In this document: piece by piece, positions 1 to 52,771 of the stretch | How the letters are laid out: each line of letters begins with the position of its first letter | How positions within the stretch are numbered: position 1 is the first letter of the stretch | NCBI GenBank assembly: GCA_003427395.1 | Contig: BFEA01000031.1 | Coordinates: 4,433,602-4,497,601 of the forward strand | Length of the DNA: 64,000 nt | Direction of reading: 5' to 3' | Source of the DNA: Chara braunii | Lineage: Eukaryota; Plantae; Charophyceae | Notes under the pieces: generated by a model | What the model was told of the DNA's origin: nothing | The model's input: the letters and a program-made list of their open reading frames with translations, nothing else | The model's database searches: none | Position numbers and translations under genes: made by a program

Positions 1-369
1 TGGTGCGCGCGTGGTGTGTGGAATGCGTCCTAGTCGACCGACGACGGGTCGCGCTTGGGACTTCAGCCCCCCAAGATGTCGGTTCACGTGCAGGTCCGAT
101 AGAGGCATACTACCGCGCGTACCCCCTATGCTACAGCGAACGAGAAATGCCCTCGGCTGGTCCAGCTCTGCGATTGCAACTGATCAACTTTCGTACTGCG
201 GACTCGTAACTCGGCGGGGATACGCCCACCGAAGGGAGGTGACAGCTCTCGTAAGGTGGAGGCAAGTCATGCCTCCCGTAGGCCCTATCCTGTCGTAGGG
301 GCTCGTGAGAGGTATGGCTGGCGCACTCCGTCGGAGCGGCTTGCGAAAGCTCCATATATATCTCACAAC
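1..369 (+). mobile_element. 3' part of a giant LTR (family G1); window starts inside it and it lacks the last ~80 bp of the LTR
   Basis: Closely similar to the reverse complement of 44473-44840 and a diverged homologue of 22225-22530; similarity stops at about 369. Confidence 0.75.
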
Positions 370-8592: not shown

Positions 8593-8634
8593 ACGCCCTT
8601 GAAAAAATCAGCAAATGCACACACACAGCCCGCA

Positions 8635-15499: not shown

Positions 15500-16600
15500 G
15501 AGAGAGGGAAGAAGAAGAAGATTCAGAAGGGACAGGTGGCCGCACGTGATTCAGCGATGGCCGAAAAGGCCGGAGAGCAGCAGCATGCCTCGTCAGCGGG
15601 CGGGCTTGCGAGTTGTGCCTGGGAACCAGCTTCACGGAGTGCTGGCCTTGTGCGCCAACTTCCGTCACCTCGTAAATGCCTGTGTAGCGTGAGTGGATCT
15701 TGGAGGAGCGCGCGGATTTCCGTACCTGCACCAAGTCCCGAACTTTATAGCGGGGTAGTGGTCCCGCGGACGCATGGCGGTTCTCGTAATCTCGGATCTG
15801 ACATTGATGCGTCCGATCCACGACCCTCTGTCGTCGTCGGGCTAGAGGGGGATAGGCCCTAGCCATTAAGTCCATGTAGTGACGGGCCTTATCTATGTGC
15901 TGGGCCCGGGTCGCTCTAACTTCCGTACCCACTAAGGGGGACAGTTGTACCCGAGGGAGACTATTGGTTCTTAGTTGAAATGGGGACACCCCGGTGCTGC
16001 CGTGTGGGGTAGCCCGATAGACGACCAAGATATGGTCGACAATGACAGGCCACGGCCGGGTGTCCCCAGCCGTGATGTTTCGTCTGAGAGCGGTCTTAAT
16101 TAGTCGATTGGCGTTCTCTACTAGGCCATTGGCTTGAGGCCAATGTCCCGGTGAGTATAAAATCTTGACGTCGGCCCTTACTAAGTGACGTTCTACTTCG
16201 CCTTGAAATTCAGACCCGTTATCCATGTGTACCTCTTCTACGTCTAGGTGCATGCACAAAAAGCGATTTATATACCAGGCTACTTCCACTGAGTTACGAC
16301 TAGTCATTGGATAGGCCTCGATCCACTTGGAAAAGTGATCAACGGCCACTAAAAGAACGTTGAGCTCCCCTTAATCGACGGGACCTTTCGGCACGTTGAT
16401 GTCCGTCGTATCGATACTGACCCACTGAAAGGGGCGTTCTACTCGAGTGGGCACCATTGTCCGCGCCATCTGTATTGGCGCCTTGTCAGCCGCACAGGCC
16501 GGGCAATTCTGGACGATGTATTTCACATCTTCCCGAATTCCCGACCACGGCGACCAGTACCATCCATTCTTTTCGATGGTTTTTTCCGTATACTTCATGG
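15393..16600 (-). pseudogene. Gypsy integrase (zinc-binding C2, DDE core, GPY/F-like C-terminus)
   Basis: IREDVKYIVQNCPAC, PFQWVSID, VDHFSKWIEAYP, HMDNGSEF, PQANGLVENAN, YRATPHGSTGVSPF, SRYTGIYEV. Confidence 0.95.
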
Positions 16601-17859: not shown

Positions 17860-18872
17860 TGTCGGGACAAATACCCTGACAAGGGTATTTGCCGGGGGTT
17901 TTCAACGTCGAACATCGTCCGACTTTTTCGTGGAGTTGAAGGACTTGATGAGATTCACGTTGCCAAAAGTTTATTCAGACCTGACCGCTAACTGAGAGAC
18001 TAAAAGATTTTAGAACCCTGGTGGGAAAGGCAGGTTGGGCCTGCTGACTGTAGGCTGGGCCTACTGGGAGTTGCATCTCTACATATACAAGAGGTGCAGA
18101 TCTAGCTCATATAATAGGAGCTAGCCCAGTAGGTTACTACGCAAGACTTTCGCCCAGCAGATACTAGGATAAAGCCCGAACGCACGCGCCCGACTGGGCT
18201 AGCCCCTTTTTGGAGCTGGCCGTTGGGGTTGGGGGCGCGGTCAATTTCGACCGCGAGATCTCGAGATCTCACGGTTGAAAACGACCGCGCAGACACTGCA
18301 TGGCCGCTGCACAAGGATGACACGTATAAATCAAGTAAAGAAAAAAATATATAAAAATAAAAATAAATAATAAAAATAAATAAATAAATAAATAAAAAAG
18401 AAAACAGCGCCACATGGCGGCCGAAGATGTGCCTGAGGGCACATAACCAGTAACCGTTGACATAAACCAACGGTTTTATTATTTGCAAAAAAAAAAAAAA
18501 AGCGTCAGATAGCGCTGTGGGAGGAAGATGGGGACTTACAGTCCCCAAAGGAAACGAGAGGCGCCTGTCGAAAATGAGCAGCCGCAATTTGGTTTCAATT
18601 TTCTTTTTATATTTTTTAGATTCTTTATTTTTTTAGATTCTTCCTTAGATTTTGTTTTTTTTTAGATTTTTTTTTTTTTAGATTCTTTTTTTTTTAGATT
18701 CTTTTTTTACGAGCTAATGGAGAAATGCCCGTTCGTCGAAAACGAACGGGCTGTACCGAGACTGTTTCGTCGGAGTTTCACCGACTCATCAGGAGGTTGT
18801 AGCCTCGATAGTCGGCCTAAGGGAGTGTGCGAACAAAATCGCACGAATCTACCCCTAAATATGGCGGGGTAC

Positions 18873-18910
<38 letters not shown>

Positions 18911-21900
18911 AAGGGTACCTACCTACCTACCTACTTACCTGGTTGGCCCCTCGTCGAAGACTCCAACGACACGATGAGCAAAATGGAATGAATCTTCCGC
19001 TAGAACATGGAAATATACACCCCCACATGTTGTCTTTCCTGTCCCCTCAATCGAATTCAGGGTCGGCGCCGGTTCATTCGAAGAAACGGGCAGCAGACTC
19101 AACTTCAGGTAAGCTTCTTGTTGTTTTCTTTTTAGTTTTTCTTTTACCTTCCCCATTTCGTGGCCATTAGACAGCAGAATATGGAGGAAAACGGGAAAAG
19201 GGGCAGAAACGAGGCAATCTGCCTCATGAAAAACTGTAAAAAAAAAAATAAAAAAATAAAAAATGAAACGAGGCAACTGCCTTGTGAAAACAAAAATGAA
19301 AAGAACAGCCTTTTTCAGGCTGTTTGGGATCAAACGCAGCTCCCCACCCACGAAGCCACAAATATTTGTGGCCGCGAGATTCAAGATCTCGCGGCTCACG
19401 ACGTGCGAGTGGGAATGGGGTTGTGGGAACTGGCTGGAAAAAGGAAGGAGGTTGGAGAAACGGGAGGATGGGAGGGGGAGGACCTACCTCTCCCAACCTG
19501 ACAACTGTCCTCCCCGCTTTCAGGGGACGGCAGAGGTAGAAGGGAGAAAAGGAAAAAGAAAAAGCCACGACCACGAATGTGGCCGAGGCTATGATCAGAT
19601 ACAGGCCAAACTGGCCTGAATGTGACTCAGGCCAGAGGGTGGGGAAATGAAGAGGTGGTGAGGGAAACTTGGCTGGAAACAGCCATTTTCCCGCTGAACC
19701 TGCATTTAGTATGGGGCTGAGTGCAGGGAAAAGGGAGAAAAAGAAGGGGGCAGTTGAGTACAACTGGCACCCTAAGTGTGTGGCTGAGGTGAGACAGCCT
19801 CAGTCCGTTGATCTGGCTCAGATCCACGGGCCCAGGCAAGTGATGAATTTTGCCTTGGGGCAGCTGAGGCTGCTGCTGCCCTCCTCAACGACTACAAAAG
19901 AGGCAGCTGTCCCCAAGCTGCCTCACACTTGCCTCCAGTTGCCAGTGTGTGACATCACACTTGCCTCATTGCTGGAGTGCTGGAAAGGAGGTAGGAGTGC
20001 TGCCGGCGGAGCTGGAGGACAGCAAAGGAGCGCCGGACAAGGAGGAGGGCAGCCATAGCCAAGGCAGGGACCACTCTGCTCCCCTCCCCTCTGGCTGGTG
20101 CTGGTCCCACGGGACGGACCCAGGGACTCTGCAGGGCTACGGCAGTGCGGCAAAGTGGAATTTGGGCCTGGGGCCCAAATTTTACTAATTTTTGGCCTGC
20201 CATTTTTCCACTTCGGTGGGGAAGTGCTGCCAAAATTGTACAGCGGCAGAGCGGCGTCGACGCAGGTTCTACGGCAGTGGTACGGAAGTGTTGCCGAACT
20301 TTTGCGGCGGCGACGCAGGTTCTACGGCAGTGGTGCGGAAGCGCTGCCGAATTTTTGTGGCAGCGGCACTAAGTTTGACGGCAGTGGTGCGGAAGCGCTG
20401 CCAAATTTTTGCGGCAGCGGCACTAAGTTTGACGGCGGAGGTGCGGAAGCGCTGCCGAATTTTTGCAGCGGCGGCACTAAGTTTGACGGCGGTGGTGTGG
20501 AAGCGCTGCCAAATTTTTGCGGCAGCGGCACTAAGTTAGACGGCGGTGGTGCGGAAGCGCTGCAGATTTTTTGCAGCGGCGGCACTAAGTTTGACGGCGG
20601 AAGCGCTGCCAAATTTTTGCGGCAGCGGCACTGAGTTTGACGGCGGTAGTACGGAAGCGCTGCCGAATTTTTTCACAACGACGACACAAGATTTACTGCG
20701 GTGACGATGGTTTTTTTTTTTGCATTGAGCGGCAACTCGGCATTGGCACAGTGAAGGTGCCGCTAGACTGGTGTATTTTGAGGTAATGTGGACTTGACGG
20801 TGCAATAACGTGGTGGCAGCGGAAGCAATTGGCAACGACACTTACAAAAAAATAAATGAGGGGGTGTTGTGGCAGGTGGTCGCAGCAAGAGAGTGGTGTC
20901 AATCAGTTTGCTGACGACTGGGGACGACTACCTTCTCATAAAAAAAAAACGTAATTCTATACGGCCTTCTTGAGTGTGCCGTACAACTTCACTCAAGGTC
21001 AGTGGTCAGTGGTCAGTAAGTGAATGACTCAGACTCCCTTCACACCTGTGTGCACCCACACATTGCTTGACCCTTTTGCTTTGAATGTTCAGGAGAAAAG
21101 GTTGAGTGGGATTGTGGGTGTCATGCATGAGTGAAAAGGTGGGTCTGACGTAAGTAGTGGGACTTTGCTCGTCTTCTTTTGGTTGTGTTGTTTGTGTGTT
21201 GTACAGGTAGGTAGACGGGTGTTTGCAAAGAAGATTGATCATGCCTATTTGAGGAAAGGAAAAACGATTATCTTCTTTTTTTTCACTTCTCACCTGCCTG
21301 AACGGCAAGAAGGTTTCCTTATTTTGAAATGTTAATTATGCAGTGTCAGTACTGTAAAAACGAATTCGATTGAAAGAAAGTAGATAAGGCTAAATCGGAC
21401 TTGGTCCTTTTCCCAAGGATTGACCCATTCTATCCCGAACGACCTTATTTACCTATACCTGTCCAAATTTTTTCATTTTTTTATCACCTCTATCACTTTT
21501 TCGTTTAAGGTACCCAAAACTTACGAAAAAGAAAACGGGAACAGTTAAAACCTGCTTGCGGTGAACACATGCTTATCTTTCAAGGAAGCATCTGGGGCGG
21601 GGGTTTGTTGCTTTAGGAGCCGACCCTGTTATCGACCCAGAGTGGACCGTTCTACGGGGGGTACTTTGCCGATTCGGTGGAGACGGCCCGACTTCTGAGA
21701 TCCGAGTCTTGTGCTCGGGTGAGGAGGAGGAGTACCCCAGACCACTTCCTAGAGGGAGAGGCATGCAACACCTCAAGCAATGCCGCTGATCAAGAACCAT
21801 CTACAAAACAGTTGTCATCCAAGAAGATTGAGAACGTACGAAAACAAGTGTGTGTGTGTTCAATCTTAGGTCGGCGGTAGGACATAATGAATAACTTTTG

Positions 21901-22693
21901 CAATGCATCTCATCAGGTCAAAACTAAGGCAACCGATTACCTTATCGGTTGCCTCAATGTTATTGTTGATAGCCAACTTCTTGTTGACGGTTGTATGGCT
22001 GTTTTGTGATATTCGACCCAAGGCGGTCGGATTGTTTTTTTGATATTTTGATGTTAAATGTATCAAATGATGATTTGAATTCTCCCAGTTATTAATCTCA
22101 ATTGGATGTATATTCTTATCAATTGTGGTCAACTCTTTTTGGTGTAATTATGTATAGTTGTTATAAATTTTGTTTGACGATGTGCCTAAGGGACTAGGAT
22201 AAATAATTGGGTTTCACGCTTGGTCTAGACCGCCCTAGTCGACCGGCGTACGCTTCGTACTTAGGAGATCAGCACCCTATGGAACAGACGATGTCCGGGT
22301 TCAATTGGCGTCTTAATCGGGCGTGCCTATACTACAGCGAGCGAGCAAACGCCCTCGGCCGACCCACCTGTACAATTGCATCTAAAAGCTTTCGCACGTG
22401 GGTCGGTAGCTCGGTAAGGATACGCCCCTAAGGGTGGTGACAACCCCTTAGGGAAGCAAGCTTATGCCCCACGGGAACCTATCCTGTCGTTGGGGACCAC
22501 GGGATGTACAGCTGGCGCACCCGGCTAGAGCGGCGAAGGAACGATGCGACCGCGACCGTCTCGACGGTCCGCAGGATTAATTATGCGTCATCCCTAAGTT
22601 GTCTCTATGGTTACTATTTAAACTCCTACGTGACATGGTCGGGAGGGCTCCCGCCTCTTTCAAAAGAAAAGGCGGCGGCCGATGCGCTCGACA
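17860..22693 (+). mobile_element. 4.83-kb solo LTR (family G1) inserted in pol, 4-bp TSD GCGT
   Basis: TGTCGGGAC...GCTCGACA flanked by GCGT at 17856-17859 and 22694-22697; removing it restores in-frame EAPAPVTLTQVRAFLG. Confidence 0.9.
20220..20675 (+). repeat. 54-bp tandem repeat inside the solo LTR
   Basis: Unit ggcagtggtgcggaagcgctgccgaatttttgtggcagcggcactaagtttgac, about 7-8 copies. Confidence 0.9.
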
Positions 22694-24068
22694 GCGTGAC
22701 CGGAGCTGGGGCTTCTTGTGCCGCTGCCACCTTCCTCGGATCCGGCTTTAGTCCGTCGGTCGTGACGATGTATCCCAAGAATGAGATTTCAGACAGAAAG
22801 AACTCGCTTTTCTCCAAAGCCACTTTGAACCCCGCATCCTTCAGTGCATGCAAAACCCACTCAACGTGTTCCACGTGGTACTCATGTCTTTTAGAAAAAA
22901 ACAAAATATTATCCATGTACACAGTCACACAGAAGCTGATCAGGGGCTGCGTCAACCGGGTTTTGTTAACGAACTCGGCAAAGGCCATGTTCATGACCCA
23001 CTGAAAGGTCGCGGGGGCGTTGCATATTCCCATGGGGCATCGGATCCATTGCCACGTGCCCTCGAATAAGACAAAAGCGGTTTTGGGCCGGTCTTCCCGT
23101 CGGACCGCGACGTGGTGAAAACCATGTCGAATATCGAACTTCGAGAAGACTAGAGCGGATCCGAAGGCATCGAGCAGATCATCGATCCGAGGCAACGGAT
23201 AGACATCCTTGGTGGTAATAGCGTTTAGCTTTCGGTAGTCAATGCACACACAGACCGATCCACTTCGTTTCGGCACAAGGCGCATGGGAAAGGAACAGAG
23301 CCCGAGTGAGGGTTCAACCCATCCCAAACGCTCGAACTCCCGTACCCTTTCCAGAGCCAGTTGTCTTTCCTTCAGGGAGTAGCGGTATGGTCGGCAGTGT
23401 ATTAGGATGTGATCCCCGGTATCTACAGCGTGTTTAATCAGGTGCGCCAGTCCGATATCGTGATCGTGGATACTGACCGCCTCGGGGTACGCCCGTATTA
23501 TTGCTAGCAAGAGACGCCGGTACTCGTCAGGCACATGGACCGGTAACTGAATATCGACGGTTCCTTTGGGAAAGGAAACCGTCGCGGTAACTGTAGGTAC
23601 CAACGCACCTTCCTCTGGTGAAGCGCCGAACAGGGAGTTGTCGGTTTTCACCGAGAGTACGGTTGCGATAAATTGACTGTCCGCCTGGCTGATTGGGTCC
23701 TTTTCGCCACCGTCTTCCAGTTCGATTTCGGTCGAGGGTTCTATCGAAAAGGCCTGGGAAAGTTTTGTCGGTCCCCATCGGTTTCCCGAGGATGTGGGTT
23801 GAAACGACACCCCTTCTTTCAGAAGAGACGCGGCCTTTGCATCGGTCAGAAAGGGTCGCGGCGGATTGAAAGACGGATCACACAGTCCTCGCAGCTCCAT
23901 AAAGCGTTCAGGGAGGGGGTCCGTTTGGAGATAGAGGGTCGCAGGGGGTTCCGAAAGGTCAGCTATTCGGGATACCCGCAACAATGGCTCACTCTTAAGG
24001 GTAGAGGAGTACACCTGGGACCACCTAGACCCACTTCGAGTATCGGAAGGGGAAGGCCTCGAAAACAA
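22694..24068 (-). pseudogene. Gypsy reverse transcriptase
   Basis: CIDYRKLNAIT, YPLPRIDDLLD, FSKFDIRHGFHH, PMGICNAPATFQ, VYMDNI (YMDD mutated), KSEFF, FLGYIV. Confidence 0.97.
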
Positions 24069-24080
24069 ATGCCACCGGTC

Positions 24081-25110
24081 CTAAACTCGGATCGAATAGC
24101 GGTCAGGTTTGTCCAACCCCTGGGTCTCAGCCGAAGATCCACTTTCGCTCGAAACTAACTGTCGAATCATATAGACTCGGTGAACTTCGGTGGAAATGCG
24201 AGGAACGAGTTGCGACCGTACATGTACAGCTGACCGCATCGGTATCGTTTGAGGTTTGGGGTGAGCCGATGTTAGCACCACTTTCGCTTTGTCAAAGTGC
24301 ATTCGAGCTCCAACTGCCGCCTGCCACGGAATTCCTAGGAGCACGTCATACGCTTCAACGGAAAAAATTCCTAGAATTAAATAATCATTCTATAGTGAAA
24401 TTATGTTCTAAATTTAAAATTTTCATTCCATCTTAAAAAATGTCATTCTAATTTTTAAATTTTCCATCTTACTTAAAAACTTTCCTTCTAACAATAGGGT
24501 GTCCCTTCTTATTTGAACTGCATGCTAGAGGTGGAATGAAAGTGTGGACGAGTTCATGAAATATTTTAATTGGACTGTCATTCTAAGTAAGGATTTCTAG
24601 TCATAAATAGGTTAATCCAATATAAATTAGAAGATATCTCTTGTAGTGGAATGAAAGTTTAATTAAAACATTTCATAAACTCGTCCAGACTTTCATTCCA
24701 TCTTGAACAAATAGATGTAGTTGGAAGGGAAAACTCATATTTAGACGGAATCTTACTAAATAAAACTGAAAATTTTAGAATTGGACAAACATTGGAATGA
24801 TAATTTATAAATATGAAGGATTTTTTTTTTATGGAATGTTTTTTCAACTTTCATTTCTCGTGGGAATTTTTCTGTTGTTGCACATCCAATACAATTGCAT
24901 CAAATAGACAATGCACCCGTCCAACCCGTATGGGCACGTTCGTGATTCGCCCCTTGCAATGAATATTGTCCTCCGTAGCCGACACATACAGTTCATCGGG
25001 TCGGAGAGGATGGACTTGCCCCTCCCGACCTAATCGTTTGGTTAGAGCCCACGAGATAGCCACGGCTGACGATCCGGAATCGAGGATGGCGGCCGAGGGA
25101 CTTTCCCAGA
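24081..25110 (-). pseudogene. Gypsy aspartic protease, split by a MITE
   Basis: AAILDSGSSAVAIS motif at about 25055-25095; VLDVQ|AYDVLLGIPW is restored when the MITE is removed. Confidence 0.85.
24356..24877. mobile_element. 522-bp AT-rich MITE, TIR CAAC(G/A)GAAAAA(A)TTCC, 2-bp TSD (TT)
   Basis: TIRs at both ends; internal TGGAATGAAAG motifs in both orientations; excision restores the protease frame. Confidence 0.9.
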
Positions 25111-25187: not shown

Positions 25188-27223
25188 TCAGCGGCCTGGA
25201 TCATGCCGATCCGTTTTGGCTCTTGAGTTTTCGAAGTCGATGGTTGGGTCTCGGCGGCTTTTGGCTGATCGTTTATGACCAGCTTTTTTGCCCTTTCGGT
25301 GTTTGTCAAACCGGCGTCGGTTTTTTATGCATCGCTCGATTAGTTTCTCATTGCCTGACTCAGAAATGGTCAGCAGGTAGGGGATGGGCACCGGGATGCG
25401 GAGATCCAAGGCCATCATGGCGTCCAGGACGTCGATCTGACTGTCCTTATACTCAGGACCAGGTGTCGCAAAGTCTTCGAACCCGGGTCTCCACGGCCCA
25501 AAATCGCTCTCCTCATTAATCTGTTGGACGTGTCTTATCACTCCAATGGTTCCGGGTTCAAGCATGACCGTCGTCATATATTCATCCATTCCTATTTCAT
25601 CCGCCGCGGGGGACACTATTTCCGTCGTTCCAGTGTCCATAACGGTGGCTACCCGACCATGTCCTGCAGCGGTAGGAGCACCTAACGGAATTTGTCTCGC
25701 GGATCCCCCTTGGGCCCGGGGCTTCGGACAATCTTTCGCTAAGTGACCCGATTGGTTAGAGTTGTAACACTGCATGGGCTGGATGGCCCGTGCAGCAGGG
25801 GCACGTGTGGCAGCGGAGCCAGCGACCATCAACGGAAAAATTTCCCAGAATTAAATAATCATTCTATAATAAAATTACAATCTAAATTTTAAATTTTCAT
25901 TCCATCTTAAAAAATGTCATTCCAATTTTAAAAATTTTCATCTTACTTGCAAACTTTCATTCCAAGAATAGGGTATCCCTTCTTATTTGGACTGCATGCT
26001 AGAGATGGAATGAAAGTCTGGATGAGTTTATGAAATATTTTAATTGTACTGTCATTCTAAGTAAGGATTTTCAGTCATAAATATGTTAATCCAATATAAA
26101 TTAGAAGATATTTGTTAGATTAGAATAAAAATTTAATTAAAACAATTTATAAACTCATCAAGACTTTCATTCCATCTTGAACAAATAGATGTAGTTGGAA
26201 GGGAAAACTAATATTTAGACGGGAACTGATCAAATAAAACTGAAAATTTTACAATTGGACGAACATTGGAATGATAATTTATAAATATGAAGGATTTGTT
26301 TTTTATGGAATGTTTTTTTAACTTTCATTTCTCCTGGGAATTTTTCTGTTGGTAGCCGCTCGCTGCCTCTGCAGGCTTTGCACGAACTCGGTTGAGGGTG
26401 TCACCGCCAAAACTAACTGTGCGGCGACCTCCTTCATGGATATATCGTCCGCGTCCTGTCCCCTTGGCGTAGGTTGAGAGCGCTTGGGGACCGGGGACGG
26501 CGGTGCCTTTCGGTCCATACCCTGCGTAGGTAGTCCTAACCCGGAACGCTCTTCGAACATCCGAGCCGCAGCCGAATAGTTGTTGTGTCGGACACCTCCA
26601 GGATCATCTTCATCTGATTAAGAATCCAGTCCCCCATCGTATTTCTCTTTACCGTACCTGATAGCATACTTCATTAGCTCCGTCAGGAAATTGTCGATGG
26701 GGTTGCATTTCTTGCGGATCTTTTTCCGCAAGTGAGAATCACACAAGCCTCTAACAAAGTCGGTTCGCACCATCTTTTCATCCGCCCCGGAGCGTTCGGC
26801 TAAGTAGGAAAACCGCTCGGCATATCTAGCTAAGGTCACACGGGGCTGCTGCGTGTATTCTTTTATTAAGCGCAGACACTGCCCTGGTGCAATATGGTCA
26901 AAACACCCCAGGAACAATCGCGAAAATTTTTCCTAATTGGTATAGGGATTTTGTCCATACCATTCGAAGGCGGTTCCCGCCAACCAACCTGGGATTCGTT
27001 CTCGGAGCAGCTGGTCCGACCACCCCTGAGCCTTCAGGGCGCCCAGCGACGTGCGTGGATCCGTTTCATCCTCGGTGAAGATTGGAACCTTCGAGGGCAG
27101 AGGGACCAAGTACAGAGGCGGGTTAGCCATATCCTCATGATTCGCCACCCCTTGTCCAGGTTCAGCCATGGTGCGAGGCCGGTTTTGACCCCGCTCCCTT
27201 GCTGCGTCCTGATTTCCGTTCAA
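25188..27223 (-). pseudogene. Gypsy gag (capsid-like region and CCHC knuckle), split by a MITE
   Basis: WLAGTAFEWY, YAERFSYLA, DFVRGL; CYNSNQSGHLAKDCP (degenerate CCHC). Confidence 0.85.
25830..26351. mobile_element. Second copy of the 522-bp MITE, same orientation
   Basis: Same length and TIRs as 24356-24877; flanks AT/GT fit a 2-bp TSD with one CpG-type transition; excision keeps the gag frame. Confidence 0.88.
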
Positions 27224-28484
27224 GGAGATGGATGGGGATGGGCCATTTGCGAAAGGGCTTTACATTGGGGGATGAAGCTCCGCTCGCACGTTTAGATGGT
27301 AGCTCTTTGATCACTCGTGGTGTTTTCTCGATTCATTTGAGTGTGACTAGGCAATTGCTCCTTCCAATATGCAGGCAGTCCAGGGAGTTCATTGGAGATT
27401 TAACTTCTTTTCCTGTGTAGGCCAAGCGTCATCCATTGGACAACACACCTTTTCACTAGGTGCAGCTATTCTAGACAGTTTCTACTACATCCTCGGGGTG
27501 CGGTGACGCCGCCCAACCCCTAGCCCCTACAATTTTTTTTTTTTGCTTAAAGCTTCGGCGTAGCATTCACATCATTCATGGGCGCCCTTAGTCTTTCAGG
27601 GCTTTGCATTGCACGCACACATCCATCATGCCAAATCACATCTGGTCATTCATCCTTTACCCAAGCATTCAACCCTCAAACCCTTCCCGCATTCATAGTT
27701 TAGGCTAAGTCCGAGTCTTTCCCTTGTCCTTTTTCCCACCCTTGCCCGCATTCCGCGGATCTAGTCCCGCTCGAACCTTCCCAAGCTACTCACCTGCGCA
27801 AGACCACACAAAGCAAGGACCAAGTACAATCCCTATTGGGGTCAACACATCGCCCCTTCCCACAAGTCTAAGTTGTCCTTTCTCTTCCAGTTCTCTTATG
27901 TGTTCCCTTTCCTTCCCCGCAAGCAAGCCATGCAACCACCGTAGTCATGCAGTCGGGGAAAATGGTTGAGTCAAACTGACCTTATCACAAGACCTTACTC
28001 CTTTCCGCTTTCCCAGACACTCACAAAAGTTCGGTACCTTTCCTTCTCAGTGGCACAAGGGACCGGCGACCCTCCCCTTGCCCTCGCTTTCCACCAAGTG
28101 AGGATCGAGTTCTTTTACCGTTCGTTTCCTGACAATGTAACAAGGGAGGGGGATAGTTAGTCATGTACCAAGGAGGGGAGGGGAGAGAGGGGTACAGGTT
28201 AGGTGCATAGGGAACGAAAGAAGAAGAGAGAGAGAGTGAGAGAGAGAGGAGGAGAAAGAGAGAGAGAAAGGGAGAGAAGGAGAGAGGGAGGGAAAGGGAG
28301 AGAGGAAGAGGGAGGGAAAGGGAGAGGAAGAGGGAGGGAAAAGGAAGAAGAGAGAGGGGGAGAAGGAGAGAGGGAGATACTTCTTCCGTCCTAACCGACT
28401 TCGCTCCTTGATCTATCCTAATCGACCCTACCTAAGGTCCCTCGCGCCCCTTGGGACCCCCTACGCCCTTTAAGCGGATGAGGG

Positions 28485-29535
28485 TGCTAGTGGCGGAAGA
28501 AGGTGTGAGGTGCTTGGTTATGGCGGGCGGGTGTAGGTGACGGAGGAGGAAGAAGGTGTGAGGTGGTTGGCTCTGGTGGATGGGTGTAGGTGGCGGAGGA
28601 GGATGGAGGTGTAAGGTGGTTGGCTATGATGGATGGGTGTAGCTGATGGTGGAGGAAGAAGGTGTGAGGTGGTTGGCTATGGTGGATGGGTGTGGGTGAC
28701 GGAGGAGGAAGAAGGTGTGAAGTGGTTGGCTATGGTGGGTGGGTGTAGGTGAAGGTGGAGGAAGAAGGTGTAAGGTGGCCGGCTATGTTGGATGGGTGTG
28801 GGTGATGGAGGAGGAAGAAGGTGTCAGGTGGCCGGCTATGTTGGATGGGTGTAGGTGAAGGAGGAGGAAGAAGGTTTGAGGTGGTTGGCTATTGGTGGGT
28901 GGGTGTAGGTGGATGAAGAAGGTGTAAGGTGTCCGGCTATGGTGGATGGGTGTGGGTGACGGAGGAGGAAGAAGGTGTGAGGTGGTTGGCTATGGTGGGT
29001 GGGTGTAGGTGAAGGAGGATGAAGAAGGTGTAAGGTGTTTGGCTATGGCGGATGGGTGTGGGTGACGGAGGAGGAAGAAGGTGTAAGGTGGTCGACTATG
29101 GTGGATGGGTGTAGGTGATGGAGGAGGGAGAAGGTGTGAGGTGGTCGGATATGGTGGATCGGTGCGGGTGATGGAGGAGGAAGAAGGTGTGAGGTGGTCG
29201 GCTATGGNNNNNNNNNNNNNNNNNNNNNNNNNNNNNNNNNNNNNNNNNNNNNNNNNNNNNNNNNNNNNNNNNNNNNNNNNNNNNNNNNNNNNNNNNNNNN
29301 NNNNNNNNNNNNNNNNNNNNNNNNNNNNNNNNNNNNNGATGGGTGTAGGTGATGGAGAAGGAAGAAGGTGTGAGGTGGTCGGCTATGGTGGATGGGTGCA
29401 CGTGATGGAGGAGGGAGAAGGTGTGAGGTGGTTGGCTATGGCGGATGGGTGCAAGTGATGGAGGAGGAAGAAGGTGTAAGGTGGTCAGTTATGGTGGATG
29501 GGTGTGGGTGATGGAGGGAAAGGAAGGTGTGAGGT
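28485..29535 (+). repeat. 53-bp G-rich minisatellite (contains an N gap)
   Basis: Unit ggaggaggaagaaggtgtgaggtggttggctatggtggatgggtgtgggtgac; period 53 (28701, 28754). Confidence 0.92.
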
Positions 29536-33600: not shown

Positions 33601-33775
33601 GAGAGAGAGTTGTGATTCACATGAGAGTGAAGAAATAGACAAAACATGCACTTTACATCACTCTAACACTAGTTGACATCAACATAGAAGTTGCGCTTCA
33701 CACCCAAGTAGAAAAACAAGTAGAATCATGAAGAAAATGAGAAAAAATCACAAGTTTGAGCTCACATAAACTAGG
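30610..33775. repeat. 173-bp satellite-like array inside the LTR (about 18 units including N gaps)
   Basis: CACACCCAAG register at 33007, 33180 and 33353. Confidence 0.92.
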
Positions 33776-44200: not shown

Positions 44201-44371
44201 ATCAAATCTAGGCTCGATCTTTAAGGACTTCCTAGTCTTGCAGCATCCCCAACGATAATCATAATATTAACAAATCGTTCATACAGTCTAACAAAAATTT
44301 CTCATTTGCCTATTTTCTCACTTCAAATACCCGGATGTCGTTCCATCAGGGACAACGGTAGGCAACCATTA

Positions 44372-44389
44372 TCCTCGGCAGCGGCGCCA
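44372..44389 (-). other. Primer-binding site, tRNA-Asp type
   Basis: TGGCGCCGCTGCCGAGGA 2 nt after the LTR end; matches the Athila-type PBS TGGCGCCGTTGCCGGGGA with 2 mismatches. Confidence 0.85.
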
Positions 44390-44391
44390 CC

Positions 44392-47300
44392 TATCGAGCG
44401 CATCGGTCCGGCACCGCACGGGGCAGTGCGGGACCCTCCCGACCGCGTCACGCAAGAGTTGGTTTAAATCCTTTGTCGCAATGTACATGGGGCTTCCGCA
44501 AGCCGCTCCGGCCGAGTGCGCCAGCCATACCTCTCCCGAGCCCCTACGACAGGATAGGGTCTACGCGAGGCACGACTTACCTCCATCTTACGGGAGCTGT
44601 CACCTCCCTTCGGTGGGCGTATCCCCGCCGAGCTACCAGTCCACAGTACAAAAGCTAATCAGTTGCAATCGCAAAGGTGGACCAGCCGAGGGCGTTTCTC
44701 ATTCGCTATAGCATAGGGGGTACGCGCGGTAATACGACTATTGGGCCCGCACGCGAACCGACATCTTGGGGGGCTGAAGTCCCAAGCGCGGCTCGTCGTC
44801 GGTCGACTAGGACGCATCCCACACAACACGCGCACACCGCTTTACAGACACAAAATAAAACACACACACACACACATACGAAATGACACAACACAAACAA
44901 CGCGACAACGCTTCAAGACCCTCGGTAGCCAACCCATAACATTTCAATGTGGAAATCTGATAGGCGTCGCGCGTGAGAGTTGATATAAAACCGCGGGGAC
45001 GCAGGGCTAAGCCATATCGACTCGCAATGTAGGCGTACACAAACAGTCGCAATGATGACGTACCATGTAGTGCCCATGATCGTGTGGTCCTCGTTAGTCT
45101 CGAGGGTCGCATTCGACACTCAAGTGTCGGATGACACGCGCCTTAAGGGTTAACCTCTCGACGCTGAACAACCGCCGAGCGGGGTTGAAGACCACACACC
45201 CTCTTTTGCACCTTATGCAGAGCGGGTGGTACACAGGTCCATACTTGTGGTGGAAGTCGTTTTCTTGCGGCCCTGGGATGAGTCTTTCTCCAGGCCTGGG
45301 CGAAAGTCAAGGGGTTTGACTTTGACGGTTGCCACAGACTAGAACGTCCAACCATAAAAATCTCTAACAAGCAAAGGATAAAGGGGAATCCCCCCTTTTC
45401 TCTCAAATACATAATATGGTCAACCCTTACACACAATTACAGTAGGCCTCTCAAGTACTCAGGGTACTCGTAAATATATGAGGGTTAATTGCTTAGGAAG
45501 ATCACTTCTCACAGTCACAGTGGGGCTCCTCTCAGCCATATATGTATGTAATCGCAGACAGTCACATCCAGAGTCCGGACCACAAACATAACTACAAATC
45601 ACATCAGAGATTCAACCAAAGGGTCCACACACTACACGGGGTCATCTTCAATCATTCTCTGTTCTCATACCATTTGCTTTAGCCATGCAAACCTCAACCT
45701 CATGGCAACCTCCCCGCAATAAAAATACTCAGTATCATTGTTAAATGACCATTCAATAAAGTCCGGGTAAAAACACAACAAAACAGATAAACCACCAGGC
45801 TAAAGCCTTTAGGTTGAGTGGCAGAAGTGAATTGGAGTTGAATCGTAAACCGACGAATCGACAACCGACCTATTATTAGTGATAACAGAAAATGATCCTC
45901 AAGGGATCAAGCTGAATCTAGTCCTGAACTTGAATCAAAACGATCAAGATGACCTGTAACACATGACGGGTCAATCCCAAAGGCTAAACCTATAAGTCCA
46001 TGAAGAATAATCCCCACATCATGATCTCACTCAAATCTTTCTAATTTACTAAGCCTGAATCTACCTTTAAGCAGTGCCCAAAGCAAAGGTAGACTCTGGC
46101 ATAATCTCGCCTATATAGAGTGGATTGCTAGAATTGCCATCTCTCAAAATATAATTTATCTCCACTAAACTAAGAAAATTTCGGCAGCGCTTCCCGTAGG
46201 AAAAGTGCATTTTCAGAATTTATATAAGTCCATATATGGGCGCATAGATAATCTCTAACTCTAGAAAGTCAAATCTAATTTAAATATTCTCTAACTATGA
46301 AAGCATTCCCTTTAGAAAGGAAAACTTCCCAGATTTATACTAAGTCAGATATGAGCTCAGAAAACAACTTGAGATCAACTTAGACAAGATTTAACTAACT
46401 CCTTAGTTTTGCTGAAATTTCGGCAGCACTCCCTTTAGAAAACTGTTATTCCAAAATTTATAACTCCCTTAATTAGCAAAAATTTGGGCAGCACTTCCTT
46501 TAGAAAAGGAGACTTTCCAGATTTTTACTAGGTCAGATATAAAGAAAAAAAAGTTGAACTTGGACAAGTCAAAAATTGAATAACTCCTTGAATTTGTAGA
46601 AATTTCAGCAGCGCTTCCCATAGAGAAAGTAGCTTGCCGAGATTTATACAAAGCCCAGTACAAAAAATGATCCCATAAAATGCAAGAATTGACCTAAGCA
46701 AAAAAAAATATCACAAAAAACGCAGGCATTGAAACTAACTCTTATGACTCTAGCACGTGGCGAGCAACTAAAGCAACTACCTATCAACCTGAAACTCAGA
46801 CTAAGTAGTGGCCTCACTCAGTCACATGCAAGTCATACCACAAAGGTAAGTACTCTCGCCAATCCCAAGTTAACCTTAACGAAGAATAGTTCATGATCCC
46901 TCAATGATTTAACCCATTACACCCAACTTACATAAGGCATAGGTCAGGCCGCCTGAACTTACAGAGGGCACCCAACTTAGCCAGGCCTAGAGTTAGAATA
47001 CCTAAACTTATAGAGTGTTCTCACTCGGCCAAATATACGCAAACAGAGGACACAACTACTTTTCTCTTCTTTGGGCACAGGACTAGACCACTCTAGTCGC
47101 CCCAGACTGTTTAAAGTATCCAAGTTGTATATATTTGTCTTCGCCTTTGTCTTCTAAGGCTGCATATGACTGAACTAACTTAAGTTCAGTCTGCCCCAGT
47201 TTACCATCAGTTCTATTCTTATTTATATTTTCTTCAAGTTGTGATACGGCTATAGTCAGACAACCTAAACTTATAGAACAGTCCGATTAACTCATTCTTA

Positions 47301-50300
47301 GATAGAGTAGTCGTAAAGTATAGCCAAGTTATAACCATTGGTTCCAGCATGTGCGAGGCTTTGAGCCAGACCCCCTGAACTTACACAAGGGTCTAACTCT
47401 CTGCCAGATTCGTTTCTATCTGAGTCATCATGTGTGTGGCATCGAGTCAAACCCCCTGAACTTACTGAAGGGTCTGCCTCTTTGCCAAAAATATTTCTTC
47501 AGAATAAAGAGCAGGAAGAGACTGAGCCACCTGAACTTACAGAACAACTCGGTCTCCTCGTTCAGGAACCAGAGAAACAAGTAAAATCCCAATAAAAACA
47601 AAGCAACCCAGGGCACCAAAACTTATTGAGCGCCCTGAGTCCCTGAAAATTAAGCACAATTAAACCCCTCACAGGTCAGAGCAGTTAGGCCACCGGAACT
47701 TACAGAACAGCCTCACCCTCCATGCAAAACCATAGCACTGGGTCTCCCCAAACTTATGGGGACATCCCAGTCTCAAGAGCAATCAGACCCCCTAAACTTA
47801 TAGAAGGGTCTGACGCTCCACGCAAACCAAAATAAACAAAGCACTGGGTCTCCCCAAACTTTTGGGGACCTCCCAGCCTTAATGACCCAGTCAACCTTTA
47901 TGCAACACATTTCCCAATCGTGCCCCTTTCCCTGATGCAATTCCTTTCACAAGTGTGACTTCAATCAAGCAACAAAAGTTGAAACTGAACTTAGACAGAC
48001 ATTCCTTTACTTAGTCAAACTTAATGTCCTGAAAGTCAAACAAAGTCAAGTAGGGTTACACGCCATATACCTAGTCAAAGATGCAGTGGGAGATACAGAT
48101 AGGGGTTATAATCTGGGTTTATAGAAGAAAAGCAACAGTTACCTTCCAATTCCCTGCCTCCAGAGCCTCGCCTAGGCTCCGGAAGAGCGTCCGCAATCGG
48201 TGGGCTGACTCCCCACTGAGTCTTGCTGCGGTCCTATGGGTTGCAATCCCGCCTGCCGCCTTCCTCTCGTTACAAGATTAGACTTAGACTTAGAAAGACA
48301 GATAGATGGGTCTGAGACTCTCGAGATACAAGGAGGGGACAAACACAACTCCCATGAGAGGGTCTTGAAACCTTCACTCGCCTGAGGACCCCACAATGGC
48401 AACCAATGTAATAACTTGGTCAACTTCTGACGTCGAACTGCCGAAGTCAATCCCCTGACGATCTCCCAATCGCAGCATCAACCCCCTATTTGTCCAGTTT
48501 GATCGCCTCCTCGAACCTCAACACCCCTCCTCAGCCCAACCGCGGCTGCACAACAGCCTGTAACAGTCCTTAGATGCAGCAGCCATACTCAGCGGCAGTC
48601 AATAGTAACAGCAGTAGTCGCCAGCAGCAGCAGCAGCTTATGCACAATTTGCAGCACTTGTCCGTCCACAACCTACAACACCTGTAGCGGTAGCCTGACA
48701 ATGCTTACAACAGACTGCGGCAGCGGTTGTTCATGCCCGGCTGCAACAGATTAGCAGCAGTCCGCACCAAATACCCAAAAGATATTGCTGCTCTCCTTAT
48801 ATGGTCAGAAACAACCCTCCTTCCTCTTCCTTTGCTGACGCCCACCCCGACAAGATATAAGTAACCCCAATGGTGCAGGCGCAGCAAGGTCTGGCTTCTT
48901 AGTCCACAGGCGCACTCCCCCTCCAGAAACAAGTTCCATTGGTCAGCCACGAACAGACCACATAATCCAACACAGCTTGCCGTATCCGTCACTCGATAGT
49001 GAAATGCGCTGCCAAACGCAGAGTGAATTTGCCGCCCCTGTTGCCTACCCTCCTTCGCTTTATTCGATAGCAAACAACATGTCAATCTACTCCCTGCTTA
49101 CTACTCCCGCCACCACAGTGGCCTGCCCCGCCCAAACCTATAGGTCCACAATCCCAATCCGCTTGACTGTGGTTCTGCTAATGGGTCAGCATACCGTCAT
49201 CCGGCAGGTCCCTAACTCGATGGCTAACTGTAGCTTCCCCGTCCGACAGACTATGCACCCCATCGGTCAATCAGTACGCCTTCCGGCCTTACGGCTCACG
49301 TCCTCACCGCCCCAACCGACGAGGTAAGCGATCCCCTTTTCTTCCCCTCTCTCTTCTCTCTCTCTCTCTCTGGGCATGAGCGTACCGGGGCAGCTGCTCA
49401 GCCATGTTCGTTCAGGAACCAGCGATAGTCAGTGTACAGGAGGACACCGCCCGCGGAGTGGGCAGCTGGGCGCAGAGGTGAACAAGGTGACACCGAAGCG
49501 TCGTAAGTATACTTCAAGGAGGAGAGAGGGAGTCTTCTATCTGTAGGCGGAGCAGCGCACTTAAGTCTCCATCCCCGCGACTCGGCCCACGCTACTTTTG
49601 TCAACAAGATAGCCAAAAATTGAATGAATCTTCCATAAGAACGCGGAGATGTGCATTTCCCCCTTTTTAAGTCCCTTCTCCATGTGCGCAACTCTAAACC
49701 ACCACGCCGCCAAACCTGCACCTTGAACGAGAAAACTGTCGATGCCATCCCATCCGCGATGGCTAAAAACCGCAGGCTACCATCTTTCCCCGCCTGACCT
49801 TGTCAGACCTCGAATAAGGTAAGTGATTCCTACATGCGCCATACCCATGCTCCCGACAGTTTTGCGCACTCCATTTCTCAACTAACTCTTTCCCTACTCA
49901 CTTTCTGACCAATCTAACTTTACTAACGGACTCGCCTTACCTTAAACCCGTCGACCGCATCCTTCCTCCACTCGATCCCCCCGAAGATCGAGTGACATCT
50001 CGCTTTTTCACTCTCGCCTCCTCTCCATCTCCATAGCTTCGCGCGACCCGACTTTCTGTCCTATCTCCTAACTTACTTACTCTTATACTAATCTGACTGC
50101 ATATTTGGGGTCGCCATGGCCCAAAACGTCAGAATAACATCTTTCCTCACCCGTTTTCGTCAAGAAACGGGTGAGATCGACATCTTTTTCTCCCCACTCT
50201 TTCTTCCCATCGCCATATCCCGACGCACTCTCTCTTCCTTGTACCACCTAACACACTAACTCTCCCTCTAATCTAACCTTACCAACGAGGTCGCCCGGGG

Positions 50301-52771
50301 TAAAAACCCCAAACTCGCCCCTTTCTCCGCCCGATTTCACCAAGGTTCGGGCGGGATCTCAACTTTTCTTGTCTCAATAGCCAAGTTTCCTCCATCTCTA
50401 TTCCGCACACATCTGGCAGGAAGTGCGTCCAGATTCTTTTCTTTGTTTTTTTCTTCACTTCTTCAGCGTTTGTCGCCACTCGTGCCTCGCTGCAGCGCTC
50501 CGCCCCCTCTCGGTCCCTTAGTACTTCGTTCTCATTACTTCATCTCCCCGTCGTTGCGCCCCGATCATCTCCTCGCCATCTGCAGCTCTCCCTTCAGTCC
50601 GCATGCACCTGGCGCGTTTCCTCGCCTAGGTTCATCCGCACCCCCCTTCTCTGTGCCTTCGAGCACTCCTCCGGCCATGTCCCNNNNNNNNNNNNNNNNN
50701 NNNNNNNNNNNNNNNNNNNNNNNNNNNNNNNNNNNNNNNNNNNNNNNNNNNNNNNNNNNNNNNNNNNNNNNNNNNNNNNNNNNNNNNNNNNNNNNNNNNN
50801 NNNNNNNNNNNNNNNNNNNNNNNNNNNNNNNNNNNNNNAGCTATCCCTTCAGTCCGCATGCACCTGGCGCGTTTCCTCGCCTAGGTTCATCCGCACCCCC
50901 CTTCTCTGTGCCTTCGAGCACTCCTCCGGCCATCTCCCTGGGCTCCCTACCGCCCTCGCCCTGCTGCTAACGCAGCTTCGGCGGTCGCGGCCCGGTGGCA
51001 ACCTGCGCTGTTCAGAATGCCTAGTTGGCCTCGGTACTCCGCTCCTCATTCGTCACTCTGCCCGTTTGCGCCCTGCCATCCATCATCCTGCTGCCTGTTT
51101 CCCCCTGCCTCAGCGCTCGTCACCTCGACGCAGTCTGGCCTATCGTCCGCTCCTCCTCCCGTCTCAGTCAAGGCGCGTTTTGTGCGCTAGCCCCGGATTC
51201 CCAAACAAGTGCCGCACGCTACTACCGGCAGACCGCTACTGCAGGTGGTCACACGCTCCGGCCCTGTTTTATCCAGCAGTCCTAGCCCCCCCCCCTCCTG
51301 CGTTTACGCCGTAGCTGCACTTTAGCCGACAGTGCCCCGACACAGCGGTCCGCCCGCCGCTACCCGATACTGCTCGCTTCTCGTTCCCAATCTCCCTTGC
51401 TGCCCATCGGTTCGCTGTCCCAAACACGGTAGTGGGACTTAGTGATACAGTCAGTGGGCCGGCGATCATGGAAGTTGAATCTGCGAAGGTGTGTGTAGCA
51501 ACTCCCTGCCAGTCCGTCCATCCATTGACATGTGCCCGCCTTGACAAGGCACGCGGCCTATGTTCTATCGTCGGGGCAACTCTCGATCCTTGACGAGTGG
51601 GCAAATGCTGGGCTCACTCCAGCACCTGCAGTATGTGTCTGGGCGACGCGGACCCTAGTGCAGATCTTGGTGGTAGTAGCAGATATTCAAATGAGAATTT
51701 TGAAGACCGAAATGGAGACGGTTCCACGGGGATGACCACAGGGATAGCCTGCCACAACATCGAAGTTGTGGCAGCGCACCCTCCAAGTATCCCCAAACCT
51801 CCGCCTAGGCATAATTCACCATCCAGCAGGTCCGAGAGGGCGCTCACACTCAACTCCCACCACGGCCGTTGGTGACGTGCGTTAAATTTCAGAGAGCCCT
51901 GCTAAAAGAGGCGCGTGCTCAAGGTTTTTGACCGTCACGACGACTCCCAAGTCTGGCGTCACACCTGAGTCGATAGGTACTAAAGCAAAAAGTAATAACA
52001 TGGCAGAATTTAAGTTATTCTAGACTTTTGATCGTCAAGATATGACGAACGGGGAAAACAAAAATGTTAGCCCTGTCCTAACGTCGCCGATGACAAAACC
52101 AAGGGGGATAGCCCCGCCGGGCCCTCAACCCCTCGGTCCCTTCGCGCCACTCTGATATTCCCACGTCGCCGCCACTCGATCTCGATCCCTAGACCTCCGT
52201 ATCGTCAACCCAATGTCATAACCTATAGGGCTACGCCCAAGACTGAGGCCCACATCCGCTGAGTGCTATACAAGGCAGTGCGGCGCGGTGCTTTGGGCCA
52301 ACAAACCGGCTGCGCGGTTCCTGGTGCCCGCGCCGGCTTGCCTATGCCGTGCCATAATTGCCCCGCGCACCCTCCTACGACACCCCGCTCACCACTCGAA
52401 GTCGCGTCGTCGCTGTCGATGCCGTCGTCGGGGCCGTCCTCTGCACACTCACTTGACTTGGTCAAACGTACCACTGAAAGAGAATATCCCCTAGATCCTA
52501 GTTTAATCAAGGGTAACCAAAAATAAAAGTTAGTAATATCCTTAACAGGGTGACCGACGTCCGAGTCGGCTCTATGATCAACGACAGAAAAGAATCACGT
52601 GCGCCTTTAGCCTGCGCGCCCACGCACTCTTTACTCTAGTCAACCATCCAGTCGACGTAATCACAGAGACAGTCGCGCCTAGCGCGGTATATTTAAACTT
52701 TAAACCAAAACCATTTTCTGCCACTTACAAAAACCAGAGCGGATACCCTTGTAAGGGTATTCGCACCGACA
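44392..52771 (-). mobile_element. 8.4-kb giant 5' LTR (family G1)
   Basis: Starts TGTCGGTGCGAATACCCTTACAAGGGTAT (same subterminal hairpin as 17860) and ends GATGCGCTCGATA (compare GATGCGCTCGACA at 22693); followed by the PBS. Confidence 0.8.
51640..51728 (+). pseudogene. LSU (25S/28S) rRNA fragment
   Basis: CTAGTGCAGATCTTGGTGGTAGTAGCAGATATTCAAATGAGAATTTTGAAGACCGAA..GGTTCCA matches a conserved eukaryotic LSU segment, recognised from memory. Confidence 0.88.

What the first reader, a model, noticed from the sequence alone, without database searches (positions are those of the whole stretch)
22210..22693. Conserved, covarying ~480-nt structured RNA candidate at the 3' end of G1 LTRs, next to the PBS
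Seen: the G1 LTRs at 17860 and 44392 barely align by eye over most of their length, yet this terminal block is conserved in three copies (1-369, 22210-22693, reverse complement of 44392-44840). Compensatory changes are visible: GCCGACCCAC/GTGGGTCGGT versus GCTGGTCCAC/GTGGACTGGT, and CCGCCT/AGGCGG versus CCGCAC/GTGCGG. A GGTGACA-containing loop is kept on different stems, and one copy has a GGCTT-GCGA-AAGCT GNRA hairpin. Inference: selection on a large RNA fold such as a packaging/dimerisation/priming element, an IRES-like element or an unrecognised ribozyme.
Basis: partly seen in the sequence, partly recalled or inferred. Interest (0 to 1): 0.8.

Follow-up and report, generated by a model that had tools for sequence, protein, structure and literature searches.

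The report
Folded RNA leader in stonewort retrotransposons
A roughly 300-base stretch near the end of the long terminal repeats of jumping genes in a stonewort alga stays conserved while the rest of the repeat diverges, is predicted to fold into a multi-hairpin RNA, and likely acts as the element's packaging and priming signal, with one unchanging loop that could grip the anticodon of the tRNA that likely primes copying.

Summary
Real feature, smaller than reported. The window is Chara braunii-like. A ~305-nt core (22230-22534) is 70% identical between two otherwise almost unalignable Ty3/gypsy-type LTRs (E 4e-39). A ~70-nt terminal hairpin is shared by two of three copies; the spacer is not conserved. 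In genomic contigs the core is 12-19 times deeper than the median of the flanking LTR. Structure support is moderate. Consensus-fold z is -3.3. A blind test gave 8 double changes against ~2.5 expected (P 0.001-0.004) in one direction, not significant in reverse. Rfam finds nothing. Two invariant loops are mutually complementary (GUGACA/UGUCG), like Ty1's kissing loops. One is also the only 6-7-nt complement among 27 tRNA anticodon loops, that of tRNA-Asp, the likely primer by the PBS. Best reading (0.5): cis-acting leader RNA for dimerisation/packaging and primer placement. Boldest (0.12): a T-box-like tRNA clamp. Only three DNA copies were available and no function was tested. The scan had not noted this element elsewhere; earlier notes on Chara elements concern accessory ORFs.

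The parts
17860..22693 (+). Solo LTR (LTR1, 4834 bp), TGTCG...CGACA, 4-bp target duplication GCGT (NCGN type), inserted in the pol region of an older Ty3/gypsy element on the minus strand
   Evidence: ends, flanks; RVT_1 at 22626-24080 minus, rve at 15393-16370 minus
22230..22534 (+). Conserved core, copy 22k. Predicted closing helix P1 (22230-22241 with 22522-22533) coincides with both edges of conservation
   Evidence: 11 of 11 pairs in 22k, 9 of 11 in 44k; 144 contigs stop matching at 44502, next to the equivalent edge
22260..22281 (+). Hairpin P2 with invariant TCAGC in its loop; one double change
22319..22427 (+). Central domain: long stem PC closing a junction with P3 (loop AAACGCC) and P4 (GCCGACCCAC/GTGGGTCGGT); four double changes against copy 44k in hand-set registers
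   Evidence: (z -3.9 in 22k, -2.4 in 44k; windows chosen after the fact)
22426..22453 (+). Hairpin P5a with invariant loop GGTGACA (22436-22442); GTGACAG in copies 1 and 44k is the exact reverse complement of a tRNA-Asp(GUC) anticodon loop
   Evidence: P0123 keeps the loop codons and likely adds an A-T to G-C double change
22459..22513 (+). Hairpin P7 with invariant loop CCTGTC(G), complementary to the P5a loop; followed by invariant GCTGGCGCAC (22511-22520), whose TGGCGC repeats the first six PBS bases
22621..22693 (+). Terminal element: second GTGAC (22630), hairpin CCGCCT/AGGCGG in an outer stem, LTR end GATGCGCTCGACA; shared with copy 44k only
44392..52771 (-). LTR2 (~8.4 kb, contains an assembly gap); core at 44815-44503, terminal element at 44460-44394
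44372..44389 (-). PBS TGGCGCCGCTGCC..., 2 nt after the LTR2 end; 12 of 13 bases match the ATHILA tRNA-Asp/Asn PBS
1..361 (+). Third copy of the core, 89% identical to copy 44k, cut by the window start and followed by unrelated DNA

Best explanation
The conserved core is likely a folded cis-acting domain in the 5' leader (R/U5) of the genomic RNA of a family group of Chara Ty3/gypsy-type retrotransposons, and it would help pair and package two RNA copies and place the tRNA primer at the nearby PBS. Shown: position at the LTR 3' end, conservation against a diverged LTR, high genomic depth, double changes in several stems, two invariant and mutually complementary loops, and a PBS of tRNA-Asp/Asn type. 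Predicted: the helices P1-P7. Inferred: the P5a loop (GUGACA) kisses the P7 loop (UGUCG), within one RNA or between two, as Ty1's SL1a/SL3a loops do. The P7 loop resembles the tRNA-Asp anticodon loop, so the real primer (stronger duplex: -7.4 to -9.0 against -4.6 to -6.5 kcal/mol) could displace it and be held for annealing to the PBS, as HIV's A-rich loop holds tRNA-Lys3. That the block lies in R/U5 and not U3 is assumed from position; no start site was mapped.
For: Conservation is confined to the LTR end. In DNA run X1 the two core bins have depth 765k and 491k against a median of 39k (range 2.9k-155k) over 24 flanking LTR bins. Consensus fold is -98.2 against -81.0 +/- 5.2 for shuffles, reached by 0 of 100; SCI is 0.78 against 0.67, antisense 0.68. 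Structure predicted from 44k, or from 44k plus copy 1, shows 8 double changes in 22k against 2.3-2.8 expected, P 0.001-0.004 in 4 of 4 such tests. At 44536 most contigs and RNA reads carry the base that pairs in P7, where this copy does not. P0123, an unnamed metagenome protein holding a translated fourth copy, breaks 0 of 10 P4 pairs (7 determined, 3 open) and 1 of 9 P5a pairs. tRNA-Asp is the only one of 27 anticodon loops with a 6-nt complement in invariant columns; the chance of GTGACA in shuffled invariant runs is 0.006. Precedents: Ty1 326-nt leader domain with complementary 7-nt loops (PMC5454406); HIV A-rich loop and tRNA-like element (PMC11181671).
Against: Only three DNA copies, two of them 89% identical. 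The reverse blind tests (22k to 44k or to copy 1) gave 3-5 double changes against 1.5-3.3, none significant. Copy 1 to 22k gave P 0.13 and 0.011, and one of ten antisense controls reached P 0.008. On the unedited alignment the named structure has 6 double changes in 74 pairs, reached by 32 of 500 shuffles. The model is 12-19 kcal/mol above the free MFE. Whole copies fold no better than shuffles. The invariant loops cannot covary, so kissing and anticodon pairing rest on complementarity noticed after the fact. The tRNA set is bacterial and incomplete; Chara's own tRNA-Asp was not seen. RNA reads per unit DNA depth are lower in the core than in flanks (0.4-0.6 against median 1.8). The other LTR family in the window lacks the block, so it is not required by all Chara elements.
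Confidence: 0.5

Rival explanations
1. The fold is real but serves translation: an IRES-like or ribosome-shunt element that lets a long, structured, possibly polycistronic element RNA be translated.
For: Size and multi-domain shape fit. Each copy has 4-6 ATGs in the core that would hinder plain scanning.
Against: No IRES family in Rfam at E up to 10. The block lies upstream of the PBS, and the 6 kb behind LTR2 has no minus-strand open frame above 140 aa. It does not explain the anticodon complement.
Confidence: 0.14
2. The block is a captured small-RNA gene or SINE head acting as a polymerase III promoter in the LTR (Cassandra/Helenus type), or an independent SINE. Conservation is then of DNA boxes and the stems are inherited.
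For: An A-box-like TAGTCGACCGG at the core start with a B-box-like word 62 nt later in copies 22k and 1; such pairs occur only 4 times in the window under a loose pattern. No run of 4 T in two of three cores. High depth and the orphan copy 1 would fit a separate repeat.
Against: Helenus keeps GGTTC in box B (PMC10886601); only 22k has it, and the abundant type reads GGTCC. ARAGORN finds nothing by default or at relaxed score 90, and Rfam finds no tRNA, 5S or SRP. Conservation runs 230 nt past the boxes. Contigs diverge after the 3' edge with no common tail (agreement 0.41). Two copies sit at the same LTR position.
Confidence: 0.12
3. Conservation is at the DNA level (promoter, polyadenylation or factor sites such as TGAC words), or reflects exchange of LTR ends between families. 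The apparent covariation is chance in GC-rich, transition-biased sequence.
For: Transitions dominate (58 of 90 differences between 44k and 22k) and give G-U pairs freely. Several structure tests are not significant. TGTAA and TATA-like words lie just upstream.
Against: The permutation null kept the substitution spectrum and still gave P 0.001-0.004. The consensus-fold signal is strand-specific. Indels fall mostly in loops, and a helix joins the two edges of conservation.
Confidence: 0.19
4. An unrecognised self-cleaving ribozyme that processes the element RNA.
For: Long invariant single-stranded runs (13 runs, 98 nt) are what a catalytic core would show. LTR-borne ribozymes exist in plants (recalled).
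Against: No Rfam family; no hammerhead core on either strand; no pile-up of RNA ends in the core in two oligo-dT runs (weak evidence); at 305 nt it is much larger than known small nucleolytic ribozymes (recalled).
Confidence: 0.05

Closest known systems
Ty1 TIPIRT leader domain (PMC5454406; abstract and section 3.4 read)
   Same: About 326 nt against about 305 nt, at the 5' end of an LTR-retrotransposon RNA; two hairpins with complementary, near-invariant 7-nt apical motifs.
   Different: Ty1 is Ty1/copia and its domain runs into gag and is a pseudoknot. Here the domain is non-coding, inside the LTR of a Ty3/gypsy-type element, the loops are on neighbouring hairpins, and there is no sequence likeness or experimental test.
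HIV-1 PBS segment: A-rich loop and tRNA-like element (PMC11181671, PMC10424219; passages read)
   Same: A loop upstream of the PBS complementary to the primer's anticodon loop, plus a loop that mimics that anticodon loop; a three-way junction near the PBS.
   Different: The HIV loop is a few bases from the PBS; here it is about 210-260 nt upstream in a separate domain, the complement is 6-7 nt, and the two loops can pair with each other.
Phygy lineage and ATHILA (PMC6317226 passages and one supplement row; bioRxiv 10.64898/2026.03.20.713144 passages)
   Same: 4-bp NCGN target duplication as in Phygy; PBS 12 of 13 like ATHILA's tRNA-Asp/Asn site; very long LTRs as in non-chromoviruses.
   Different: Phygy elements are 7.7-10 kb in all and mostly use tRNA-Trp. 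No pol belongs to these LTRs in the window, so the lineage was not placed. Neither paper's passages mention such an RNA domain.
Cassandra, Helenus, Ajax (PMC10886601; parts 1-3 of 6 read)
   Same: A highly conserved RNA-like island inside otherwise variable LTRs.
   Different: Those are miniature elements with recognisable 5S or tRNA sequence and intact Pol III boxes; here the LTRs are 5-8 kb, with no 5S or tRNA match and a degenerate box B.
T-box riboswitch (PMC10424219 passages; UGGN motif recalled)
   Same: A codon for the tRNA (GAC) in an invariant loop and an invariant UGGC that could pair with the tRNA's GCCA end.
   Different: Bacterial; no Rfam T-box match; no terminator platform; the candidate sites are about 75 nt apart in a different architecture.

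Membership tests
LTR of a Ty3/gypsy-type retrotransposon | TG...CA ends with short inverted repeat and a target duplication | tested here: met
   TGTCG...CGACA, GCGT both sides for LTR1
LTR of a Ty3/gypsy-type retrotransposon | tRNA PBS 1-3 nt after the 5' LTR | tested here: met
   TGGCGCCGCTGCC 2 nt after LTR2; only exact match in the window
LTR of a Ty3/gypsy-type retrotransposon | Own gag-pol in gypsy order and a matching second LTR | tested here: inconclusive
   LTR1 is solo; behind LTR2 lie 6 kb without long sense ORFs, then a PPT and an LTR of another family. Superfamily is inferred from TSD, PBS and genome context
Retroelement leader packaging/dimerisation domain (Ty1 TIPIRT type) | Conserved secondary structure at the 5' end of the genomic RNA | tested here: inconclusive
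   Structure moderately supported; transcription start not mapped
Retroelement leader packaging/dimerisation domain (Ty1 TIPIRT type) | Complementary or palindromic apical loops | tested here: met
   GTGACA(G)/CTGTCG, -4.6 to -6.5 kcal/mol; the invariant palindrome GTCGAC is no better than chance (0.50)
Retroelement leader packaging/dimerisation domain (Ty1 TIPIRT type) | Required for dimer formation, packaging or transposition | not testable with these tools
   needs experiments
Helenus/Cassandra-type Pol III LTR | Recognisable tRNA or 5S sequence | tested here: not met
   ARAGORN and Rfam blank
Helenus/Cassandra-type Pol III LTR | Box A and box B with GGTTC conserved | tested here: not met
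   Box A-like word in 3 of 3 copies, GGTTC in 1 of 3
T-box riboswitch | Match to the T-box covariance model | tested here: not met
   no hit at E up to 10 in any copy
T-box riboswitch | Specifier codon covaries with the cognate tRNA | not testable with these tools
   only one PBS available
Known self-cleaving ribozymes / known IRES families | Rfam family match or hammerhead core | tested here: not met
Protein-coding exon | One open frame kept in all copies | tested here: not met
   All six frames have stops in all three cores; frame-shifting indels; two protein searches blank; the two true hits are short translated pieces

The most novel reading that the evidence does not exclude
A eukaryotic retrotransposon carries a T-box-like RNA clamp for its own primer. 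The invariant GUGACA(G) loop reads the tRNA-Asp anticodon, the invariant UGGCGC takes the uncharged 3' end before hand-over to the PBS, and an internal anticodon-mimic loop (CUGUC) keeps the clamp closed or bridges two genomes until the primer arrives. This would couple dimerisation, primer choice and possibly translation to tRNA-Asp charging.
Probability: 0.12. Interest if true: 0.85.

Novelty: new variant of a known kind. Interest (0 to 1): 0.52.

Why it matters
Structured leader domains are mapped for yeast Ty1/Ty3 and retroviruses, but my searches found none described for green-lineage LTR elements. This one is large, very abundant and shared by LTRs that have otherwise diverged beyond alignment. 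Its genome should hold enough copies for a decisive covariation test, and it could serve as a marker for classifying Chara elements. If the loop tracks primer type across families, it would show RNA-only recognition of a primer tRNA at two points in a eukaryotic mobile element.

Tried and rejected
No whole genome is held, so no deep alignment or covariance model was built. Pattern scans gave only chance hits. Metagenomes: 117 loci, partial scan, none extending beyond the seed. Viral contigs: 120, 0, 0 and 2 loci (checked in 39 and 71). Prokaryote genomes: 1 locus, weak seed-only match. Rfam: nothing at gathering score; at E up to 10 only two chance hits, E 5.7 and 4.2. Translated-frame searches were blank for two frames among longer proteins. 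The HMMER search gave 3 hits, of which P0122 is an unrelated repeat protein and was dropped. Pairing of the LTR end or PBS junction with invariant core segments looked attractive but is at chance level (27-51% of shuffles); rejected. The palindrome GTCGAC as a dimer site is at chance. A recalled likeness to picornavirus type II IRES motifs found no Rfam support. ARAGORN at scores 80 and below returns noise. One search used wrong P5a coordinates and wrong coordinates for several helices; corrected values are (P5a). An alternative 10-bp helix (CGGYR.GGATA with TATCCTGTCG) fits all three copies and is not excluded. One search listed no holder on record as RNA. The RNA runs laid disagree in strand bias, so no strand or start is claimed. 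Only LTR2 from 43900 to 48400 was laid; LTR1 was not.

Full report
Context. The reverse-transcriptase frame beside the finding has Chara braunii gene models as its best 35 hits, and a Chara model, CBR_g8957, contains a translated piece of the block itself. The window is therefore taken as Chara braunii-like repeat DNA. LTR1 runs 17860-22693, begins TGTCG, ends CGACA and has GCGT on both sides. It is a solo LTR inside the pol region of an older minus-strand element. A 4-bp NCGN duplication is the mark of the Phygy lineage in Neumann et al. (PMC6317226, passages and one supplement row). LTR2 runs 52771 to 44392 on the minus strand and is followed after 2 nt by TGGCGCCGCTGCC, 12 of 13 bases like the ATHILA PBS for tRNA-Asn/Asp (bioRxiv 10.64898/2026.03.20.713144, passages; its supplements are closed). 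That the primer is Asp and not Asn rests on my recall of plant tRNA 3' ends.

What is conserved. A sensitive comparison of the two LTRs finds 70.3% identity over 22231-22534 (E 4e-39) and 72% over 22621-22691, plus three short islands elsewhere. Identity in 60-nt steps is 0.62-0.77 in the core, 0.30 in the spacer and 0.27-0.53 upstream. Copy 1-361 is 89% like copy 44k and lacks the terminal part. In one DNA run laid at 80% likeness, the core bins have summed depth 765k and 491k. The 24 flanking LTR bins have a median of 39k and a maximum of 155k, and the two bins furthest into the internal region 0.6-0.7k. Summed contig depth is no copy number, but 144 contigs stop matching at 44502 with mixed continuations (agreement 0.41). 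The core is therefore likely shared by many LTR bodies. A sediment metagenome shows the same peak at low depth.

Is it structured? Whole copies are not unusually stable. The three-copy consensus fold is: -98.2 kcal/mol against -81.0 +/- 5.2, with 0 of 100 shuffles reaching it, and SCI 0.78 against 0.67; the antisense strand gives -80.3 and 0.68. In a blind test, pairs predicted from one lineage were scored in the other against 5000 permutations that keep the substitution spectrum. From 44k or 44k plus copy 1 to 22k there were 8 double changes against 2.3-2.8 (P 0.001-0.004, 4 of 4 tests). From copy 1 alone P was 0.13 and 0.011. From 22k none of 4 tests was significant. One of 10 antisense controls gave P 0.008. 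On the unedited alignment my named structure has 88% of cells paired (9 of 500 shuffles; slid controls 37-44%) and 6 double changes in 74 pairs (32 of 500). With registers set by hand I count 7 double changes in the core and 2 in the terminal hairpin; that count is fitted, not a test. P0123, a divergent fourth copy seen only as protein, is compatible with P4 and P7. It likely changes an A-T pair of P5a to G-C, if its serine codon is of the nearer family, while keeping the loop. Verdict: a conserved RNA fold is likely (about 0.75), not proven.

Anatomy and mechanism. P1 joins the two edges of conservation. Inside lie P2, the central PC/P3/P4 domain, P5a and P7. Thirteen invariant runs (98 nt) remain. 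Two are hairpin loops that complement each other: GTGACA(G) and CTGTCG. Ty1's 326-nt leader domain has two hairpins with complementary 7-nt motifs; changing either cut transposition to 7-8%, with partial rescue by restoring the pairing (PMC5454406, abstract and section 3.4). Ty3 dimerises through 5' palindromes (PMC11381356, abstract only). The P5a loop is also the reverse complement of the tRNA-Asp(GUC) anticodon loop CTGTCAC. That loop came from a bacterial genome and agrees with the human motif (PMC8682788, passages) and with Arabidopsis C38 (PMC4535395, passages). Of 27 loops tested it is the only one with a 6-nt complement in invariant columns, and the full 7-mer is in 2 of 3 copies. Chance levels in shuffled invariant runs are 0.006 for GTGACA, 0.023 for TGGCGC (the PBS start) and 0.045 for CTGTC, all chosen after the fact. 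HIV uses both an anticodon-binding loop and an anticodon mimic near its PBS (PMC11181671, PMC10424219, passages). I commit to a leader domain for dimerisation/packaging and primer placement (0.5). The loop contacts are inferred.

Rivals. Translation element (0.14): plausible given an unreviewed note on polycistronic Chara elements, but without positive evidence. Pol III head or SINE (0.12): box A-like and box B-like words 62 nt apart, but GGTTC in only 1 of 3 copies and no tRNA or 5S match. DNA-level or chance (0.19). Ribozyme (0.05). Coding is excluded by stops and frame-shifting indels. RNA reads cover the LTR throughout, with no enrichment over DNA depth and no clear ends, so there is no sign of a discrete abundant polyadenylated RNA.

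Novelty. No Rfam family matches. Six literature searches (listings only) showed no description of it, but the library lacks most subscription papers and I did not see the Chara genome paper or Repbase. The scan's own index has no look-alike. It works like a retroelement leader domain, a known kind, with its own sequence and architecture: a new variant. Interest 0.52. The T-box-like clamp reading has probability 0.12 and would deserve 0.85.

Noticed in passing
window 17860-17895 (+) and 52771-52734 (-): Both LTRs begin with a related hairpin (ATACCCT/AGGGTAT core, different outer pairs); z -3.1 and -2.4. A second conserved structure, at the U3 end.
   Followed up: partly
window 38366 to ~30446 (-) and 58195-64000 (+): A second LTR family (about 85% alike) starting TGTCGG, with ACGT before the 58195 copy; it lacks the block. 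The 38366 copy follows a PPT, so LTR2, a 6-kb region without long sense ORFs and an LTR of a different family lie in line: a chimera or deletion product, unexplained.
   Followed up: partly
window 18876-18928 (+) and ~49371-49322 (-): Both LTRs keep a GA repeat followed by CTTACC (79% over 53 nt), which reads as a 5' splice site plus CT-rich tract on the antisense strand; possibly an outward antisense transcript.
   Followed up: no
window 24355-24877 and 25829-26351: Two 523-bp, AT-rich, palindromic insertions 90% alike (MITE-like) interrupt the older element's gag-pol.
   Followed up: no
window ~27200 to ~13400 (-): The older host element: zinc knuckle, RT and integrase hits, followed by further ORFs at 13447-15550 without Pfam match for the two tested; possible 3' extra ORFs.
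   Followed up: no
window 4082-9417: Minus-strand ORFs including a Ulp1-type protease next to a palindromic repeat array at 8640-9417; DNA-transposon-like.
   Followed up: no
window 31454-33782, 62810-63880, 28476-29539, 37496-37863: Tandem arrays with units of about 173, 53 and 51 bp, most inside the second LTR family.
   Followed up: no
window 333-353 (+) and 44509-44489 (-): GGAGC/GCTCC can close a variable loop just after the core in the copy 1/44k type (compatible with P0121), competing with helix P1; a possible alternative conformation.
   Followed up: partly
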